The position numbers and the translations under genes were made by a program. Under the pieces are notes generated by a model. The model saw nothing but the letters and a program-made list of their open reading frames with translations, had not been told where the DNA came from and did no database searches. Below, piece by piece: positions 38,238 to 59,743 of a stretch of 64,000 nt of DNA. Source of the stretch: a virus; the IMG/VR virus record IMGVR_UViG_3300027901_000002, positions 1 to 64,000 of that record, one strand, 5' to 3'. Positions within the stretch are counted from its first letter, which is position 1, and every line of letters begins with the position of its first letter.

Positions 38238-38366
38238 TAAGGAAGGTCGGATTTGCACCGACGCTTTCTTAGGTGATGGTCTCAGTAAAGAAAGTCTAAA
38301 ATAGATAAGCGGACGTCCTTACCATCATTACCGTCAGTAGGCTTTACGCTATCTATTTTCTTCCTT
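38238..38366 (-). ncRNA. tRNA-like structured RNA (acceptor stem + T-arm, two extended kissing arms)
   Basis: AAGGAAG/CUUCCUU 7-bp terminal stem, GUCGG-UGCAAAU-CCGAC T-arm, 13-bp and 7-bp arms, complementary loops UGAUGGU/ACCAUCA. Confidence 0.75.
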
Positions 38367-38401
38367 TATTTTATTTTATTTTTAAATTTTCTTAACATAA
38401 A

Positions 38402-38423
38402 AATATTTTAAACATTTATAAAT
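38402..38423 (-). promoter_or_regulatory. Putative TATA-type promoter motif (copy 2), upstream of the tRNA-like RNA
   Basis: Plus-strand AATATTTTAAACATTTATAAAT. Confidence 0.5.
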
Positions 38424-38984
38424 GTGTATTCCCAGACGAAGCATTTTTATTATTTTCAGATTTTTAAAAATAATAAAATAATCAAAATTGAAGTCGCTAC
38501 GACGTTTCCAATCGAGGTATATAAAATAAACCTAAGAGTAGAGTTAATTTTTTGCGTTACGTTTAGTGTGTCTTGTAAAGTATCTAAAAGTTCGAGTATA
38601 TCTTCTTCCATACTTAAGAAGAGTCCTAGCTCGTACAAATCTTTTTTCGTGTAAGACGAATTACATTCTTTACAATAAAATCTTTCGTAAACCCAATTCA
38701 TTTCAATGTTTTTATGTATCGGACAATTCATTAGTTGTTCGCCATTATTAAGCAAAGCGTTATAATTACGATAGATACGCCTAAAAACAAGGAAATAACA
38801 AAAAGGGCGTATTTTTTAAGTTGGTTCAATTTTTTCGACCTTAAAAGTAGTTTCGTTATCGATTCTTTCTGGATCTTGATTCCAAATCCTTTTAGTTGCT
38901 TTTCTAATCGCTTCGCACTCGTCTTCCGCTTCTACTTCTACTCTGTAAATATCTATCAAAAATTCTTTTACTTCTACTTTATAT

Positions 38985-39428
38985 TTAACCACTCATATCC
39001 ACTCTTATTTCCATTATTATACCATCTTCGATTTTTGCGTAAACTGGATACAATCCATCTCCAAATCCAGAATCAAAAGATACAGCTAAACCATCGTGTC
39101 CAAGGTGGAAAGGTATTTGTTTGTAACTTTTTCCTTTTTTGTGAGAGACGTAATTGTAAGAAAATTCAAATTCTGGTTCGTAATGTATTCGAATCCATTG
39201 TTTAAGATCGTGTATTAAGTTATTAGGTGTTAATCCTAGTTCTTTTATTTCTTGTTCGTAGCTATCAAAATCTTTACCATATTTGTATATTTTACCGCTT
39301 TCTTTGTCTCGATATTCTCTTATATCTTCGTATTCGCCTTTTTTCCACCATTTAAGATAAGAAGGATCGCATATTATTAACTGTCCAGAATCTACTCCAA
39401 CTACGCCAATTTTTTTCCATTCTGTCAT
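38985..39428 (-). CDS. DUF4241-like protein
   Basis: GVDSGQL.ICDP and SGFGDGLYPVY. Confidence 0.75.
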   Translation of the reverse strand: MTEWKKIGVVGVDSGQLIICDPSYLKWWKKGEYEDIREYRDKESGKIYKYGKDFDSYEQEIKELGLTPNNLIHDLKQWIRIHYEPEFEFSYNYVSHKKGKSYKQIPFHLGHDGLAVSFDSGFGDGLYPVYAKIEDGIIMEIRVDMSG

Positions 39429-39566
39429 TTCGAGTCGGTAGAGTTCGTCAACTCAGTGTTTCACATGCATGTTACGCACACCCCTGATAGCTCCTTGCTG
39501 TTGATTGAGGTAAGTGCAATGAGCACGTCTCTCGCTCCTTAGGAGTCCGTCTTAGGAGGCACCGAT
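39429..39566 (-). ncRNA. BHB-flanked element C (138 nt): predicted intron/circular RNA
   Basis: CGAG-AAA-UCGGU ... ACCGA-CUCG-AAA; GC-rich and structured. Confidence 0.75.
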
Positions 39567-39979
39567 TTCTCGTCTAACTCTTTTAACCATCTATTTATAA
39601 AACCATTTATTTCGTGAGTTGGAACGTTATATCCGCTTGGACTACCTTCAGACCATTTGTTTAAAATTCTTTGCGTTTCTAACAAAACTAGTTCTGCCAT
39701 AGTTTTTCTTTCTTTCAGAAGGTGTTGTTTTCTACTTAATTCCGCTTTTTCGTACATTCCATCTCTATAAAGCATTCTTGCAAACTTCATTTTTTGACGC
39801 AATTCAAAAATACCTAAATAATGACGATTAAACATTTCCACCAAAAACCTAGAATTTCGTCCTCTTTTTTCGAGCATTTTAATTGCTTTGTAAGTTCGCA
39901 AAAAATTACCAATACTTAGTTTAATTGGATTAGTACTTATATTACTACAAATTGATTCTATTTTTTCTCTTTTTGACAT
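39539..39979 (-). CDS. Hypothetical protein; 3' end interrupted by BHB element C
   Basis: 146-aa ORF. The predicted spliced form ends ELDEK-stop. Confidence 0.6.
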   Translation of the reverse strand: MSKREKIESICSNISTNPIKLSIGNFLRTYKAIKMLEKRGRNSRFLVEMFNRHYLGIFELRQKMKFARMLYRDGMYEKAELSRKQHLLKERKTMAELVLLETQRILNKWSEGSPSGYNVPTHEINGFINRWLKELDEKSVPPKTDS

Positions 39980-40194
39980 TATTTTTCGTCTAATTTAGAT
40001 ATTGGACAATTTTCCCAATCTTGTGAATTGTAACAACCGCTAGTACATCCTCCTCCTTTGCCACATATTTCTCCACCACCTCTTAAATCTACAAGATATG
40101 GACATGTTGTTTTACAAATCCACGTAACATGGTTCCAAGGGCAGTTGTTTATGTATTCACAACCTATACAATAATCTACGCTATAACTTGGCAT
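39979..40194 (-). CDS. Small Cys-rich protein
   Basis: Likely ATG at 40194 (MPSYSVDYC...), 10 cysteines. Confidence 0.6.
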   Translation of the reverse strand: MPSYSVDYCIGCEYINNCPWNHVTWICKTTCPYLVDLRGGGEICGKGGGCTSGCYNSQDWENCPISKLDEK

Positions 40195-40196
40195 AT

Positions 40197-40341
40197 ATCG
40201 AGTCGGCCTCAATTGAGATTTTTGCTCTGGCTTGGGAAATTTGCATGCTTTCCAAAATAGTTAAAAGCTATAAAGTTTATAATCCAATGGGATCTCTAGT
40301 CCCTGTCTACCCCCCAAGAGGCCGTCGCAGAGCTTACCGAT
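40197..40341 (-). ncRNA. BHB-flanked element B (145 nt)
   Basis: CGAG-AAA-UCGGU ... GCCGA-CUCG-AUA; inner stems GCUCUG/CAGAGC and CUUGGG/CCCAAG. Confidence 0.7.
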
Positions 40342-40427
40342 TTCTCGTTCGGCGGGATGTAGTGACAATACGCACCGTCCCTATGTGACCTTCCTTATTA
40401 CTCTTACGAGCTATGCCCTATACCGAT

Positions 40428-40559
40428 TTCGAGTCAGCTGGAGCTCCCAAAGAACTTTCGGTTAGAGACGATATACGCTTCAACCTCCCCTGCATCCACT
40501 CGTGTAGAGTCTTTCTCTCTACTCAGGATCTACGGCTGTCCCGCTTCGTTCACGCTGAT
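40428..40559 (-). ncRNA. BHB-flanked element A (132 nt)
   Basis: CGAG-AAA-UCAGC ... GCUGA-CUCG-AAA; inner GUAGAG/CUCUAC hairpin. Confidence 0.75.
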
Positions 40560-40877
40560 TTCTCGTATTCTTTCTTGTCTTCTTTTCTTAATTTCTTCTA
40601 ACTCACTTTTCGGAACTGGTTTTAACTTTACGCCTTCCGCAAAAACCAATTTTAATTCTTTTACCAATTCTTGCTTTACGCCGCTAATTTTAGGAGCAAA
40701 TTTTGGAGGTTTCGGAGGAGGGTTCCAAGTAGGACGAGAAATAAATCTTTTCGTCCCAACGAACCTAAGAAAACTACTTCTATTTCTCCCTTCCAATTCT
40801 GCGTTTTCGTCTATTTTCTTTAGCTCCTCTTCATTAACCCAAAAACTAATTTTTATTGCTCTTTTTCGATGCGACAT
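40530..40877 (-). CDS. Ribbon-helix-helix (CopG-like) protein; 3' end interrupted by BHB element A
   Basis: ISFWVNEEELKKIDENA..EGRNRSSFLR. Confidence 0.75.
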   Translation of the reverse strand: MSHRKRAIKISFWVNEEELKKIDENAELEGRNRSSFLRFVGTKRFISRPTWNPPPKPPKFAPKISGVKQELVKELKLVFAEGVKLKPVPKSELEEIKKRRQERIREISVNEAGQP

Positions 40878-41205
40878 AAGAAACCGATGTGTTAACCTTT
40901 AAGAATTGGTAAATAAATTGCTGTTAATAATATAAACGCAAGTAAATGTACGACAACCCAAAATATAGCAATTACGATTGCTATTTTTTCGTCTTTATCC
41001 ATTTTAACCCAAATTTTTCAAAAAAATTACCAAACAATCTATCGAACAAAAATCAAGCCTACATTCGTAGTAGGTTCCTGTTGTTTTATTGTTTTCGTCT
41101 GAAATATTAATATCAAACGTGCAGTTATCCTTACTAGAAATAGTAATCCAACCAACACATTTTCTAACTTCGTCTAACGTTCCTTCTCTTCCACAACTAT
41201 CGCAT

Positions 41206-41589
41206 TTATATTTTGTTATTTTCAAACTTTTCGAACTTCTCAATTATTTTTTTTACTTCTGGATGAACTTCCATCGAAGCTCCAGCTCTAATTTTAGTTC
41301 CAGAAATAACTTTCACATCTTCTGGAACTTCTACTAAAGAGTATCCAACTCCTCTTCCAATAGCAACCATTTCTATGTCTGGAATCGTAATAATTTTTAC
41401 CATTCCAGTTAAAATTTCGTCTTGATACACAACAGAAATCATTCTGTATCTAAGCCAAAGAGGATATTTTTCTTCGCTATCTCTTATTGCGATACAAACT
41501 GGCTTTCCGTTAAGTAAGAAAGAGTCTATAATTGTTTTATGTCCTAAATGGAAAGGAGACCACCGACCAATAAACAAATTATATTTCAT
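41206..41589 (-). CDS. Cytidylyltransferase-like (HIGH) nucleotidyltransferase
   Basis: IGRWSPFHLGH, GRGVGY, ISGTKIR. Confidence 0.85.
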   Translation of the reverse strand: MKYNLFIGRWSPFHLGHKTIIDSFLLNGKPVCIAIRDSEEKYPLWLRYRMISVVYQDEILTGMVKIITIPDIEMVAIGRGVGYSLVEVPEDVKVISGTKIRAGASMEVHPEVKKIIEKFEKFENNKI

Positions 41590-43323: not shown

Positions 43324-44394
43324 TTAGGTTTCATAAAATTCTGCCTTTAAGTTATTTTTTGTTTTTTTTAATTTCATTTCGTATTTTGGATTTATTAACC
43401 CTTTTAACAACAAGCCATCAATATCGTAAATTTTACACGCGTTTTCTATTATTGACGAATATTCGCATTCTTTTAAAGCTTCTTCGAAGATATTGTCTTT
43501 AAAACCAAAATAAGAAAAAATTGTTTTTAAAATTTCTTTTGTTTCGTATATCCTTTTTCTAAGAGTTCGAACGTCGCAACCAACAATTTCACATAAATCC
43601 TTTTGCGTTACGCCGAAATTTTCGCTAGTTAAAATATAAATACAAGCGGCGGCTTTAACAATTGGATTTCTAAATAAAGTAGAGGAACCTATTGCTTCCT
43701 CTATTTTTAAAATATTTTTTATGAAATTTTTGCTTGCACAACAGACTAAAAACTCTTCTCTTGGAGATAAGCATATTCCGCTCACTATTTTAGTGACAAA
43801 AGTTTCTGGTTGTTGTTGTTCTACTTTTAAGTTTAAAATCGTAATTAATCTCGAATAAAATTGTTTTATTTTCTTTACATCGCATTCTATTTTCTCAAAA
43901 TCGAATAAAGTGTAAGGAAGTTTTTGTTTTTTTATTTCTAAATACGCTATTCCTTGCGCTACAATTTCAAGTGAAACCTTACCTCCACCTCTAAAAATGT
44001 TGGTTGAGGAAATTTCATTTAATTTACATATTTTAATGAAGTTATAAAACGCCGAAGCGTAAAAATCTTTACTTAAACCAAGAAGTTCAATTATCCTCTT
44101 AAGTTCTTTTTTGATTACAGATTCCCTTTTATCCTTCCAATCGTAATAGTATTTTTTTAAAGCTCTTTTTAAATTAGGATTTTTGCATTGTTTAATGTTT
44201 ATTTTCGTTCTCTTGTTTATACCTTTTAAAAATGTAGACCTATTTCTTTCTTTTTCTATTGCCGAGTTGTCTTCTAATTGTTGAGGAGGAGTGTAATCAA
44301 TCGGTTTATCTTCAAAAACCAAGCCACAGTTAGTACAAACATCTATTCTGTAAGATTTTTCTCCACATTCTGGACACCACGTCATAATCCACAC
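43324..44394 (-). CDS. tfb: Transcription factor IIB (TFB) homolog
   Basis: Zn ribbon CPECG...VCTNCGLV, two cyclin folds, RNP...AAACIY, VTQKDLCEIVGCDVRTLRKR. Confidence 0.88.
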   Translation of the reverse strand: MWIMTWCPECGEKSYRIDVCTNCGLVFEDKPIDYTPPQQLEDNSAIEKERNRSTFLKGINKRTKINIKQCKNPNLKRALKKYYYDWKDKRESVIKKELKRIIELLGLSKDFYASAFYNFIKICKLNEISSTNIFRGGGKVSLEIVAQGIAYLEIKKQKLPYTLFDFEKIECDVKKIKQFYSRLITILNLKVEQQQPETFVTKIVSGICLSPREEFLVCCASKNFIKNILKIEEAIGSSTLFRNPIVKAAACIYILTSENFGVTQKDLCEIVGCDVRTLRKRIYETKEILKTIFSYFGFKDNIFEEALKECEYSSIIENACKIYDIDGLLLKGLINPKYEMKLKKTKNNLKAEFYET

Positions 44395-58660: not shown

Positions 58661-59743
58661 TTATAATTGTTCTATAAGACGAGGTTTAAAATCAATACCT
58701 TTTAAAAATTCTTCGACAAATTTTTGTTCTTTTTCGTCTTCAGACAATTTATTAACAATAATCGCTTGTACGCTTTGCTTCAAAAATCTTTTTCCCATTC
58801 TGGCTACAATTGAAGCAAAATTGACACACATTCTCGTTGAAAACAATCTGTTCAACGATTTATCTATTAAGGCGGCTTTTCTTAAATGGTCAGCCGCTTC
58901 TACGACGACTGAGGCAAATCCTTCAGAACAAGGAACATTTCTCGTAATAATTTCTATTTCTTTTCTTTTTTCTGGATAGTCAAATTTCCAACCTATTGGA
59001 AACCTATCGTTAAAAGCTTCTTGTAATTCGTTAATTCCAAGTACATTAAAATTAACTGTCGCGATTACAATTAATTTTGCGTCTGAATTTAAACCGTGTC
59101 GTTCGCTAGATTTTGATATTAAGTTTAAATGTCCCTCGGATAAAATTCCATTAAGAGAAATCTGTTCTGGCGTTTGAATTGTATTTGCTTCGTTTATAAT
59201 TAAAAAACAAATTCCGTTTTTGTTTGCTTCTTTAACGGCTAAAACTAAAGGGCCGTAACTAAATCGAGTTTGTCCATTAATTATTTCCCAACAACCCTCT
59301 AAATCTCTTCTGTCTAATTGAGGACTTCCATCTATTATGAAGTATCTTGAATTAAAGTGTTTCGCTAACGAAATTGCGAGTAGAGTTTTACCAGTACCTG
59401 GAGGGCCGCTGAGTAATATACCAAGACTTTTTCCTTGTTCAGCAATTTTTATACATTCCATTAGATAGTCGAGTTCTCTCCCTTGTTGAACATATCGTTG
59501 TTCTTCACAATACCTTCTTCTATTTTGTTTTTTTGCAAAATGTGCTTGTTTTGCAAATTCTATGGCTTTGTCTCTCCTTAAAATAGTTTTTGTATGTTTT
59601 TTAGTCCAAAAGAAAGTTTCGCCACATTCTAAACATTCTATAACATAATCTCCGTCGTCTCTGTTTCTTATTTTAAGACAATTAGTGTGACAATCTTGAC
59701 ATTTCATGTTACGAAGCGATTGTCCTAATCTTTTATCTACCAT
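58661..59743 (-). CDS. MoxR/CbbQ/NirQ-like AAA+ ATPase with N-terminal Zn ribbon
   Basis: GPPGTGKT, GPL..A, INEAN, AT.N, AF.DRF, STR. Confidence 0.9.
   Translation of the reverse strand: MVDKRLGQSLRNMKCQDCHTNCLKIRNRDDGDYVIECLECGETFFWTKKHTKTILRRDKAIEFAKQAHFAKKQNRRRYCEEQRYVQQGRELDYLMECIKIAEQGKSLGILLSGPPGTGKTLLAISLAKHFNSRYFIIDGSPQLDRRDLEGCWEIINGQTRFSYGPLVLAVKEANKNGICFLIINEANTIQTPEQISLNGILSEGHLNLISKSSERHGLNSDAKLIVIATVNFNVLGINELQEAFNDRFPIGWKFDYPEKRKEIEIITRNVPCSEGFASVVVEAADHLRKAALIDKSLNRLFSTRMCVNFASIVARMGKRFLKQSVQAIIVNKLSEDEKEQKFVEEFLKGIDFKPRLIEQL

What the first reader, a model, noticed from the sequence alone, without database searches (positions are those of the whole stretch)
40197..40565. Tandem, re-splicing arrangement: elements A and B with an 86-nt spacer that has its own BHB-like ends
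The spacer 40342-40427 is bounded by CUCG-AAA-UCGGU...GCCGA-A-CGAG-AAA, a mirror BHB with one extra A. Excising A regenerates CGAG-AAA-UCGGU, which can pair with the end of B. Sequential splicing could therefore remove all 363 nt (40197-40559), leaving the RHH gene ending RIREICQVIA-stop and overlapping the next ATG (40194). Alternative pairings predict several circle isoforms and three different RHH C-termini.
Basis: inference. Interest (0 to 1): 0.7.

Follow-up and report, generated by a model that had tools for sequence, protein, structure and literature searches.

The report
Tandem tRNA-intron-like inserts in archaeal virus

Summary
The sequence facts are correct. On the minus (coding) strand, four sites alternate CGAG / CUCG / CGAG / CUCG. 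Each is followed by a 3-nt A-rich stretch and a 5-nt arm. They bound three segments: A (132 nt), spacer (86 nt) and B (145 nt).

A and B form relaxed bulge-helix-bulge (BHB) motifs without an outer helix. The spacer forms a full three-helix motif with one extra unpaired A, and it is the most stable of the three in silico. Any excision regenerates a usable site. Removing all 363 nt gives an RHH gene ending ...ICQVIA*, overlapping the next ATG by 19 nt.

CGAGAAATC occurs only three times in the 99-kb genome, always at the 5' end of such an element (A, B and C, which lies 630 nt downstream). The interiors are unrelated.

The virus looks archaeal (TFB-like and RFC-like genes) and encodes neither a splicing endonuclease nor RtcB. 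The whole 2.9-kb block holding these elements is absent from its nearest relative.

There are no RNA runs, no insert-free variant and no other family member, so splicing, its order and the circular RNAs remain inference.

This scan has noted BHB introns in archaeal virus genes on other DNA. This case differs in being tandem and at gene ends. Verdict: real and unusual anatomy, untested mechanism.

The parts
40530..40877 (-). RHH (NikA-like / CopG-type) gene. Its last 10 codons (nine residues plus the stop) run into element A.
   Evidence: ORF list. Pfam NikA-like E 2e-7 and RHH_1 E 5e-4. No homologue in 5.8 billion proteins.
40554..40566 (-). Site S1: A-CGAG-AAA-UCAGC, the 5' cut site of A (cut between 40560 and 40559), inside the RHH reading frame.
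   Evidence: Sequence. One of only three CGAGAAATC in the genome.
40428..40559 (-). Element A, 132 nt, 52% GC. It is closed by UCAGC/GCUGA plus CGAG/CUCG (relaxed BHB of HBh' type).
   Evidence: Folds. GC content. Its arm differs from those of B and C by two compensated changes.
40422..40438 (-). Site S2: GCUGA-CUCGAAA-UCGGU. It is the 3' site of A and the 5' site of the spacer. As a local hairpin it has a 5-bp stem and a 7-nt loop, like a tRNA-Ser(CGA) anticodon arm.
   Evidence: Sequence. Pairing probability 0.59 at 37 C. The consensus form of this arm (CCGACTCGAAATCGG, as at the predicted circle junctions of B and C; S2 itself has U for the second C), followed by a T-loop, is found in more than 120 genomes.
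40342..40427 (-). Spacer, 86 nt, 49% GC. Its ends UCGGU/GCCGA pair. With its flanks it forms a three-helix BHB-like motif with one extra unpaired A (40348).
40336..40353 (-). Site S3: GCCGA-A-CGAG-AAA-UCGGU. It is the 3' site of the spacer and the 5' site of B (cut between 40342 and 40341).
   Evidence: Sequence. The local hairpin has probability 0.79 at 37 C.
40197..40341 (-). Element B, 145 nt, 44% GC. It is closed by UCGGU/GCCGA plus CGAG/CUCG and has an AT-rich core.
   Evidence: Folds. GC content.
40193..40207 (-). Site S4: GCCGA-CUCG-AUA-UAU, the 3' cut site of B (cut between 40197 and 40196). The UAU can pair with the AUA in front of S1.
   Evidence: Sequence. Mini-substrate fold.
39979..40194 (-). 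Downstream Cys-rich 71-aa gene. Its ATG (40194) would overlap the RHH gene by 19 nt after full removal of the inserts.
   Evidence: No family match.
39429..39566 (-). Element C, 138 nt, 51% GC, the fourth family member: CGAG-AAA-UCGGU ... ACCGA-CUCG-AAA. Its removal gives an ATGA stop/start overlap.
   Evidence: Sequence. Motif counts. Alignment.

Best explanation
The 363-nt GC-rich island is a head-to-tail array of three members (A, spacer, B) of a small family of inserts. A fourth member, C, lies 630 nt downstream.

The ends of each insert, together with the flanking CGAG, build the bulge-helix-bulge motif that archaeal tRNA-splicing endonuclease cuts. The four sites alternate CGAG/CUCG/CGAG/CUCG, so each of the three segments has its own 4-bp central helix and 5-bp closing helix.

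The viral polycistronic mRNA is most likely cut at these bulges by the host endonuclease. The released segments, whose ends are held together by the closing helices, would be circularised by the host RtcB ligase. At least part of the mRNA would be rejoined.

Every segment starts AUC(G/A)G and every cut leaves ...GAA. Any excision therefore regenerates a usable site, and all processing routes converge on an mRNA in which the RHH gene ends ICQVIA* and overlaps the next start codon.

Shown: the sequence anatomy, the family, the predicted folds and the archaeal character of the virus.
Inferred: cleavage, ligation, processing order, circular RNAs, and any function of the RNA cargo.

The array probably grew by repeated insertion at the CGAGAA|A site, which every insertion re-creates at its own 5' junction.
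For: - Geometry: CGAG pairs with CUCG. There are exactly 3 nt to the 5-bp arm at S1, S2, S3 and the 5' end of C, and 0 nt at the 3' sides of A, B and C.
- Alternating polarity at four consecutive sites is what three adjacent BHB motifs require. A simple tandem of identical-ended DNA elements would not produce it.
- A's arm UCAGC/GCUGA differs from UCGGU/RCCGA of B and C by two compensated changes.
- CGAGAATC-type ends: CGAGAAATC occurs only 3 times in 99 kb, all in the sense orientation and all at element 5' ends.
- The interiors are unrelated but 44-52% GC in a 33.5% GC genome. This is the only GC-rich gap among the minus-strand gaps over 120 nt within the window.
- Removal gives gene overlaps of the kind common in this genome.
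- The virus has TFIIB-like and RFC-large-subunit-like genes, so the host is archaeal.
- The virus has no endonuclease or RtcB of its own.
- Asgard and TACK archaea have the (alpha-beta)2 endonuclease with the L1 loop, which the paper links to broad substrate specificity (non-canonical introns and relaxed BHB motifs such as HBh') (PMC5829648).
- Ordered and nested BHB processing is known in tRNAs (PMC3728597).
Against: - No RNA run holds the stretch.
- No relative shows the uninterrupted junction; the whole 2.9-kb block is missing from the nearest virus.
- No other family member was found in three large collections.
- The folds are no more stable than shuffled sequences, with z-scores from about -0.4 to +1.1.
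- In long contexts the ensemble prefers the local S2 and S3 hairpins or the spacer motif over the A and B motifs.
- A, B and C have no outer helix beyond one A-U pair, so exon ligation may be inefficient.
- The spacer motif has an extra unpaired A.
- The inserts do not break any conserved protein motif, so the virus does not need splicing.
- The host lineage is not established.
Confidence: 0.45

Rival explanations
1. The segments are small non-autonomous DNA insertion elements that target CGAGAA|A and are never removed from the RNA. On this view the BHB-like ends are recognition sites for a host DNA enzyme, or a relic of how the elements arose. The genes simply carry short altered tails and long structured spacers.
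For: - The ends are conserved while the interiors are unrelated.
- Short direct repeats flank each segment: GAAAUC, GAWAU, and ACGAGAAAU around the spacer.
- The elements sit in a strain-specific accessory block.
- Every unspliced form still gives intact ORFs.
- One unoccupied ACGAGAAAT site exists at 58937-58945.
Against: - The direct repeats have inconsistent lengths (5, 6 and 9 nt).
- There are no terminal inverted repeats beyond the 5-bp arms.
- The virus has no Y1 transposase or tyrosine integrase.
- The model does not explain the exact 4-bp/3-nt geometry, the alternating CGAG/CUCG polarity or the compensated arm of A.
- All copies lie in the sense orientation.
Confidence: 0.25
2. The motifs are cleavage and circularisation signals only. 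The host endonuclease cuts the polycistronic mRNA at the four bulges, releasing A, spacer and B as stable circular non-coding RNAs (decoys, sponges or other cargo) and separating the upstream and downstream cistrons. The exons are not rejoined, so no new RHH C-terminus is made.
For: - Strong closing helices hold each segment's own ends together. A, B and C have at most one A-U pair (three AU pairs for the post-A junction) to hold the exons.
- The GC-rich cargo looks like stable RNA in an AT-rich genome.
- The predicted circle junctions of B and C reproduce a genuine tRNA-Ser(CGA) anticodon-arm sequence found in more than 120 genomes; the S2 hairpin is the same arm with one U for C.
Against: - The cargo has no Rfam match, no fold z-score signal, no conservation and no complementarity to the viral genome beyond chance.
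- Clean restoration of compact gene overlaps for both C and A-spacer-B argues that the exon junctions matter, or at least mark the original sequence.
Confidence: 0.2
3. The repeated CCGA-N7-UCGG palindromes (11 bp centre to centre) are DNA operator or centromere-like sites bound by the adjacent RHH protein. The BHB likeness would then be coincidental.
For: - RHH proteins bind short repeated or palindromic sites near their own genes (established knowledge).
- S2 and S3 are local palindromes that lie right after the RHH gene.
Against: - The S2 arms match only through G-U pairs, which are mismatches in DNA.
- The compensated changes link S1 to the left arm of S2 across 132 nt, not the two arms of one palindrome.
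- The half sites at S1, S4 and the ends of C, and the CGAG/CUCG complementarity, have no role in this model.
- The sites lie downstream of the gene, not at its promoter.
Confidence: 0.05
4. The island is the decayed remnant of viral tRNA genes. Relatives of this virus carry real tRNAs, and the spacer with its flanks looks like an intron at position 37/38 of a tRNA-Ser(CGA) anticodon arm.
For: - The related contig L006 has tRNA-Ser(TGA) and tRNA-Thr(TGT) genes.
- The S2 hairpin closely resembles a true tRNA-Ser(CGA) anticodon arm: the consensus arm, which the B and C circle junctions would carry exactly, is widespread in tRNA-Ser genes, and S2 differs from it by one U for C.
Against: - ARAGORN finds no tRNA here at its default thresholds, even with introns allowed; only when the threshold is lowered to 85% does it report one low-confidence hit over B, on the non-coding plus strand.
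- Rfam finds no tRNA match even at E = 10.
- No T-arm, D-arm or acceptor stem can be recognised in A or B.
Confidence: 0.04

Closest known systems
BHB intron in the cbf5 pre-mRNA of Crenarchaeota (Watanabe 2002; Yokobori 2009, PMC2738675)
   Same: A tRNA-type bulge-helix-bulge motif sits in a protein-coding transcript and is removed by the cellular tRNA-splicing endonuclease and ligase. Relaxed motif forms are accepted.
   Different: cbf5 has one short intron (some as short as 33-39 nt) inside a conserved catalytic codon of a cellular gene, and its splicing has been shown experimentally. Here there are three adjacent 86-145 nt segments at a gene end in a virus. No conserved motif is interrupted and there is no RNA evidence.
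Multiple, nested or ordered BHB introns in tRNA genes (Thermoproteales; Cyanidioschyzon merolae, PMC3728597)
   Same: Several BHB motifs occur in one precursor. [quoted passage not shown]
   Different: Those introns are separated by tRNA exon sequence that holds the molecule together. Here the segments abut directly and share their cut sites, with alternating helix polarity, and every excision regenerates a site.
BHB processing of archaeal pre-rRNA and permuted tRNAs into circular intermediates (PMC3978253, PMC7714728)
   Same: BHB cleavage followed by ligation makes circular RNAs from segments whose ends are held by a helix.
   Different: In those cases the excised segment is a known functional RNA with long processing stems. 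Here the cargo is unrelated, unannotated GC-rich sequence with a 5-bp closing helix.
Transposed tRNA intron families of Thermoproteales (Fujishima 2010, cited in PMC4090602) and repeatedly gained Asgard tRNA introns (bioRxiv 10.64898/2026.10.13.758758)
   Same: BHB-bounded inserts appear at new sites within a genome by an unknown route, at places that can form the motif.
   Different: In Thermoproteales the whole intron sequence is similar between copies and the hosts are tRNA genes. Here only about 12 nt at each end are shared, and the hosts are viral mRNA gene junctions.

Membership tests
Archaeal BHB (tRNA-type) intron: elements A and B | Two 3-nt bulges on opposite strands, separated by a 4-bp helix, with flanking helices h and h'. 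| tested here: met
   The relaxed HBh' form is present: a 4-bp CGAG/CUCG helix, a 3-nt 5' bulge closed on both sides, and a 5-bp inner helix. The 3' bulge is followed by only one A-U pair. A strict hBHBh' motif is not formed by A or B as they stand.
Archaeal BHB (tRNA-type) intron: spacer | Two 3-nt bulges on opposite strands, separated by a 4-bp helix, with no other unpaired bases. | tested here: inconclusive
   All three helices and both 3-nt bulges form (-14.0 kcal/mol). This is the favoured motif in the ensemble. However, A40348 is unpaired opposite the 5' bulge.
Archaeal BHB (tRNA-type) intron | Cleavage by the splicing endonuclease and joining by RtcB, giving a spliced RNA and a circular intron. 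| not testable with these tools
   No RNA run is listed for this stretch. The DNA contigs show only the colinear form.
Archaeal BHB (tRNA-type) intron | A host that has a splicing endonuclease able to cut relaxed motifs. | tested here: inconclusive
   The virus has no endonuclease or RtcB. TFIIB-like and RFC-like genes point to an archaeal host. The host lineage was not determined. According to PMC5829648, Asgard and TACK archaea have the broad-specificity enzyme.
Archaeal BHB (tRNA-type) intron | Intron-less homologues with a continuous sequence at the same site. | tested here: inconclusive
   The RHH protein has no homologue. Relatives lack the whole 2.9-kb block. Removal gives plausible ORFs and a 19-nt overlap.
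Nested or recursive BHB splicing | A splice motif that exists only after an earlier excision. | tested here: inconclusive
   The post-A junction paired with S4 forms the only A/B-type motif with an outer helix. The same 14 nt already exist at S3, however, so B can be removed without prior excision of A.
Cut-and-paste MITE | Terminal inverted repeats and target-site duplications of fixed length. | tested here: not met
   The flanking direct repeats are 5, 6 and 9 nt long. The inverted arms are only 5 bp and are offset by the 3-nt bulge.
IS200/IS605-derived element | A Y1 (HUH) transposase, subterminal hairpins, and insertion 3' of a fixed short target without duplication. | tested here: inconclusive
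   The virus has no Y1_Tnp. Insertion 3' of CGAGAA and small hairpins next to the 3' arm are compatible with this family, but pairing between the two ends of an element is not a feature of it.
tRNA gene | A cloverleaf with acceptor, D, anticodon and T arms. | tested here: not met
   ARAGORN finds nothing at its default thresholds, even with introns allowed; with the threshold lowered to 85% it gives one low-confidence hit over B on the non-coding plus strand. Rfam finds nothing at gathering scores and no tRNA match at E = 10.

The most novel reading that the evidence does not exclude
An archaeal virus carries an array of three abutting BHB cassettes with alternating helix polarity. The host tRNA-splicing endonuclease and RtcB would process this array recursively into several circular RNAs (132, 86, 145 and 231 nt) and three mRNA isoforms. 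Every excision regenerates a splice site, and the array grows by re-insertion at the CGAGAA|A site that each copy re-creates. If so, this would be the first recursive BHB splicing in an mRNA and a viral way of making circular RNAs with arbitrary cargo.
Probability: 0.22. Interest if true: 0.8.

Novelty: new variant of a known kind. Interest (0 to 1): 0.55.

Why it matters
In the literature I could search, BHB splicing of protein-coding transcripts is documented for one archaeal gene family (cbf5) and for one 5' UTR, and not for viruses.

An array in which three segments share cut sites and any excision regenerates a site would show three things. First, the tRNA-splicing machinery can act combinatorially on mRNA. 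Second, it would give a natural example of virus-made circular RNAs. Third, it would offer a concrete, site-specific case (CGAGAA|A) for studying how BHB introns spread, which is still an open question for Thermoproteales and Asgard tRNA introns.

The anatomy also gives a compact in vitro substrate for testing how tolerant broad-specificity endonucleases are of a missing outer helix and of an extra unpaired base.

Tried and rejected
- Known RNA families: none. Rfam at gathering scores and at E up to 10, and ARAGORN at its default thresholds with and without introns, gave nothing; at an 85% threshold ARAGORN gave only low-confidence calls, one of them over B on the non-coding strand.
- Fold stability against shuffles: z-scores from about -0.4 to +1.1 for the whole island and for each segment, so this gives no support either way.
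- RNA evidence: no RNA holder is listed for this stretch. Four DNA runs held only identical low-depth fragments, with no joint across any element.
- Other family members: both-ends patterns with gaps of 45-165 nt gave 0 hits in viral contigs, and the 105-135 nt gap gave 0 hits in genome contigs and metagenome contigs. CGAGAAATC is absent from the related viruses G001 and G002.
- Nucleotide similarity to deposited phages and archaeal viruses: none.
- Homologues of the RHH protein, to judge the native C-terminus: none.
- Relatives found through the RFC-like gene lack the whole block, so no empty site could be compared.
- Similarity between the interiors of A, spacer, B and C: none.
- Complementarity of the interiors to the viral genome: nothing beyond chance.
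- Virus-encoded endonuclease, RtcB, Y1 transposase or integrase: none. TnpB-type zinc-ribbon hits are weak and generic.
- A generic BHB scan is uninformative, because thousands of chance hits occur.
- Shine-Dalgarno usage is too low in this genome to tell which isoform suits the downstream start.
- A look at upstream regions for archaeal promoters with my crude gene calls gave nothing usable.
- C/D-box or K-turn motifs: none convincing by eye.

Full report
**Setting.** The window belongs to a single 99,014-bp virus record with direct terminal repeats, rated complete, at 33.5% GC. Within the window nearly all genes lie on the minus strand and are tightly packed. Overlaps of 1 to 20 nt are common. 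Most minus-strand gaps over 120 nt within the window are AT-rich, and 40195-40529 is the one clearly GC-rich one (47%). The virus encodes a family B DNA polymerase, an RFC-large-subunit-like clamp loader whose structural neighbours are archaeal, and a protein with a TFIIB zinc ribbon and a TFIIB repeat. An archaeal host is therefore well supported. A specific (Asgard) host was suggested by earlier notes but not tested here.

**The observation.** I read the region on the coding strand. Four sites follow each other:
- S1: CGAG-AAA-UCAGC
- S2: GCUGA-CUCG-AAA-UCGGU
- S3: GCCGA-A-CGAG-AAA-UCGGU
- S4: GCCGA-CUCG-AUA-UAUG

The repeat finder recovers the repeats. A fourth element, C (39429-39566), has the same ends.

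The 9-mer CGAGAAATC is expected about 0.6 times on this strand. It occurs three times in the whole genome, on either strand, and each time at the 5' end of A, B or C. The four segments are 44-52% GC. Their interiors show no similarity to each other and no match to Rfam, and ARAGORN finds no tRNA there at its default thresholds.

The family is therefore real and is defined by its ends. The bare BHB geometry is not rare by itself: a relaxed search gives thousands of chance hits in this genome. The significance rests on the shared ends, the composition and the positions.

**Why the ends are best read as RNA bulge-helix-bulge motifs.**
- In a pre-tRNA the 5' exon supplies one strand of the 4-bp central helix and the 3' end of the intron supplies the other. 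The two 3-nt bulges lie on opposite strands, and cuts fall after the second bulge base (established knowledge; PMC4090602). A, B and C fit this exactly: exon CGAG pairs with intron CUCG, there are 3 nt to a 5-bp inner helix on the 5' side and none on the 3' side.
- A's inner helix is UCAGC/GCUGA, where B and C have UCGGU/RCCGA. That is two compensated changes across 132 nt.
- The polarity of the 4-mers alternates CGAG, CUCG, CGAG, CUCG. This is what is needed for each of three abutting segments to have its own central helix. A plain tandem of identical-ended DNA elements would end every unit in CUCG.
- The flanking direct repeats differ in length (5, 6 and 9 nt), and there are no true terminal inverted repeats. 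This fits a transposase poorly.
- The virus encodes no Y1 transposase or integrase.
- All copies are in the sense orientation.

**The spacer.** With its flanks the spacer forms an outer helix (GCUGA/UCGGU, two G-U pairs), the central helix CUCG/CGAG, both 3-nt bulges and the inner helix UCGGU/GCCGA. This has the orientation of an intron at position 37/38 of an anticodon arm. The one deviation is A40348, which is unpaired opposite the 5' bulge.

As a mini-substrate the spacer motif is the most stable:

| Pairing | Energy (kcal/mol) |
|---|---|
| Spacer (S2/S3) | -14.0 |
| A (S1/S2) | -11.0 |
| C | -10.5 |
| Post-A junction with S4 (231 nt) | -10.4 |
| B (S3/S4) | -10.2 |
| S1 with S4 directly (363 nt) | -6.5 |

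In three transcript contexts and at two temperatures, forcing the spacer motif costs 0.3-2.5 kcal/mol relative to the free ensemble. Forcing the A and B motifs together costs 2.7-13 kcal/mol. The local hairpins at S2 and S3 compete with these motifs. The A and spacer motifs exclude each other, as do the spacer and B motifs, because they share a 4-mer. None of the segments folds better than shuffled sequence.

**Re-splicing.** Excising A joins ...ACGAGAA to AUCGGUA..., the same 14 nt as at S3. The same holds if the spacer goes first, since the spacer and B both begin AUCGGUA. The system is therefore closed under excision, and all routes end at ...CGAGAA|AUAUGCC....

The post-A junction paired with S4 is the only A/B-type pairing that gains an outer helix, 3 bp of AUA/UAU made by the true exons. 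B can equally use its own identical site beforehand, so recursion is possible but not obligatory.

The recomputed products are as follows:

| Form | RHH C-terminus | Gap to ATG 40194 |
|---|---|---|
| Unspliced, spacer-only or B-only removal | ...EISVNEAGQP* | 335, 249 or 190 nt |
| A removed (with or without B) | ...EIGIGHSS* | 209 nt (64 nt if B also removed) |
| All 363 nt removed | ...EICQVIA* | 19-nt overlap |

**What could not be shown.**
- No RNA run is listed for this stretch. The four DNA runs that could be laid hold only identical fragments.
- The RHH protein has no homologue among 5.8 billion proteins.
- Relatives were reached through the RFC-like gene. In the nearest complete one, a 99.5-kb virus, the nucleotidyltransferase gene is followed after 281 nt by the RFC-like gene. 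The whole 2.9-kb block 38319-41208 of this window is absent there. That block holds the RHH gene, A, the spacer, B, the Cys-rich gene, C and a DUF4241 gene. Another relative has a different filling and two true tRNA genes. The elements therefore sit in a strain-specific accessory region, and no empty site is available for comparison.
- No other family member was found by end patterns in three large collections.

**Mechanism and rivals.** I consider processing of the viral mRNA by the host tRNA-splicing endonuclease the most likely reading (0.45).
- For: an archaeal host cell contains the enzyme. According to PMC5829648, the (alpha-beta)2 enzymes of Asgard and TACK archaea carry the L1 loop linked to broad specificity for non-canonical introns and relaxed BHB motifs such as HBh'. 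Ordered and nested BHB processing is known in tRNAs (PMC3728597).
- Weak point: exon ligation. A, B and C have no outer helix, so circularisation of the segments is better supported by the anatomy than rejoining of the mRNA. I list a cleavage-and-circle-only version as a rival (0.2).
- A purely DNA-level insertion element with no RNA removal remains possible (0.25). It shares with my reading the inference that the segments arrived by insertion at CGAGAA|A.
- RHH operator sites (0.05) and decayed tRNA genes (0.04) explain much less.

**The anticodon-arm likeness.** The predicted circle junctions of B and C read CCGA-CUCGAAA-UCGG, and the S2 hairpin is the same arm with one U for C. Followed by a T-loop, this sequence is found in more than 120 genomes as the anticodon arm of tRNA-Ser(CGA) genes. 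The likeness is real at the sequence level. It says nothing about the host, and any BHB product has a 7-nt loop anyway.

**Comparison and novelty.** The closest documented case is the cbf5 pre-mRNA intron (PMC2738675). The closest for ordered processing are multi-intron tRNAs (PMC3728597). That paper also recalls 12-bp putative introns in a rudivirus that were never shown to be spliced. I found no description of BHB-bounded inserts in viral mRNAs, nor of abutting BHB segments that share cut sites.

Earlier notes of this scan report BHB introns inside archaeal virus genes on other DNA. I did not test those. The present case differs in being tandem, at gene ends, and not required for any conserved protein motif.

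I rate it a new variant of a known kind, with interest 0.55. The anatomy is real and unusual, and it gives a clean experimental substrate. The mechanism rests on one genome and no RNA.

Noticed in passing
window 38319-41208: The whole 2.9-kb block between the nucleotidyltransferase gene and the RFC-like gene is absent from the closest complete relative. The block holds the RHH gene, A, the spacer, B, the Cys-rich gene, a 146-aa gene, C, a DUF4241 gene, two small genes and a tRNA-like leader. In the relative (99.5-kb virus, L003/G001) the two flanking genes are 281 nt apart. This is a strain-specific accessory island rich in RNA-processing-like signals.
   Followed up: partly
L006:23-187: A related metagenome contig carries two bona fide tRNA genes, Ser-TGA and Thr-TGT, upstream of the same nucleotidyltransferase/RFC gene pair. 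The window's own genome has none at ARAGORN's default thresholds.
   Followed up: partly
window 40261-40290 (minus strand), inside element B: B has an AT-rich core with a TATA-like TTTATA at 40274-40269, about 75 nt upstream of ATG 40194. There is also a GAGG 12 nt before that ATG. B might therefore carry an internal promoter or ribosome-binding site for the Cys-rich gene in the unspliced form.
   Followed up: no
window 58937-58945 (minus strand): This is the only other ACGAGAAAT on the coding strand, an unoccupied copy of the apparent insertion target. Seven further ACGAGAAA sites lack the following T.
   Followed up: no
window 43324-44394 (minus strand): A 356-aa protein has a TFIIB zinc ribbon (E 3e-6) and a TFIIB repeat (E 2e-4), both just under Pfam's cut-offs. 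It is a virus-encoded TFB-like factor and is conserved in the related virus at 38% identity.
   Followed up: partly
window 40422-40438 and L016-L095: The 15-nt hairpin sequence CCGACTCGAAATCGG, followed by a T-loop, occurs in more than 120 species genomes, mostly bacteria, as the anticodon arm of tRNA-Ser(CGA). The predicted circle junctions of B and C would carry it exactly; the S2 hairpin at 40422-40438 has T for the second C.
   Followed up: partly
window 38985-39428 (minus strand): The gene downstream of element C is a DUF4241-family protein (Pfam E 6e-8; PHROG 5209, E 1e-14). It is one of the few genes in the block with any family match.
   Followed up: no
3' ends of A, spacer, B and C (40439-40446, 40208-40217, 39440-39453): Each segment has a small hairpin or palindrome immediately 5' of the 3' strand of its closing helix: GGAGCUCC in A, CUCAAUUGAG in B, and GAGUU-GACG-AACUC in C. 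These could stack on the closing helix.
   Followed up: no
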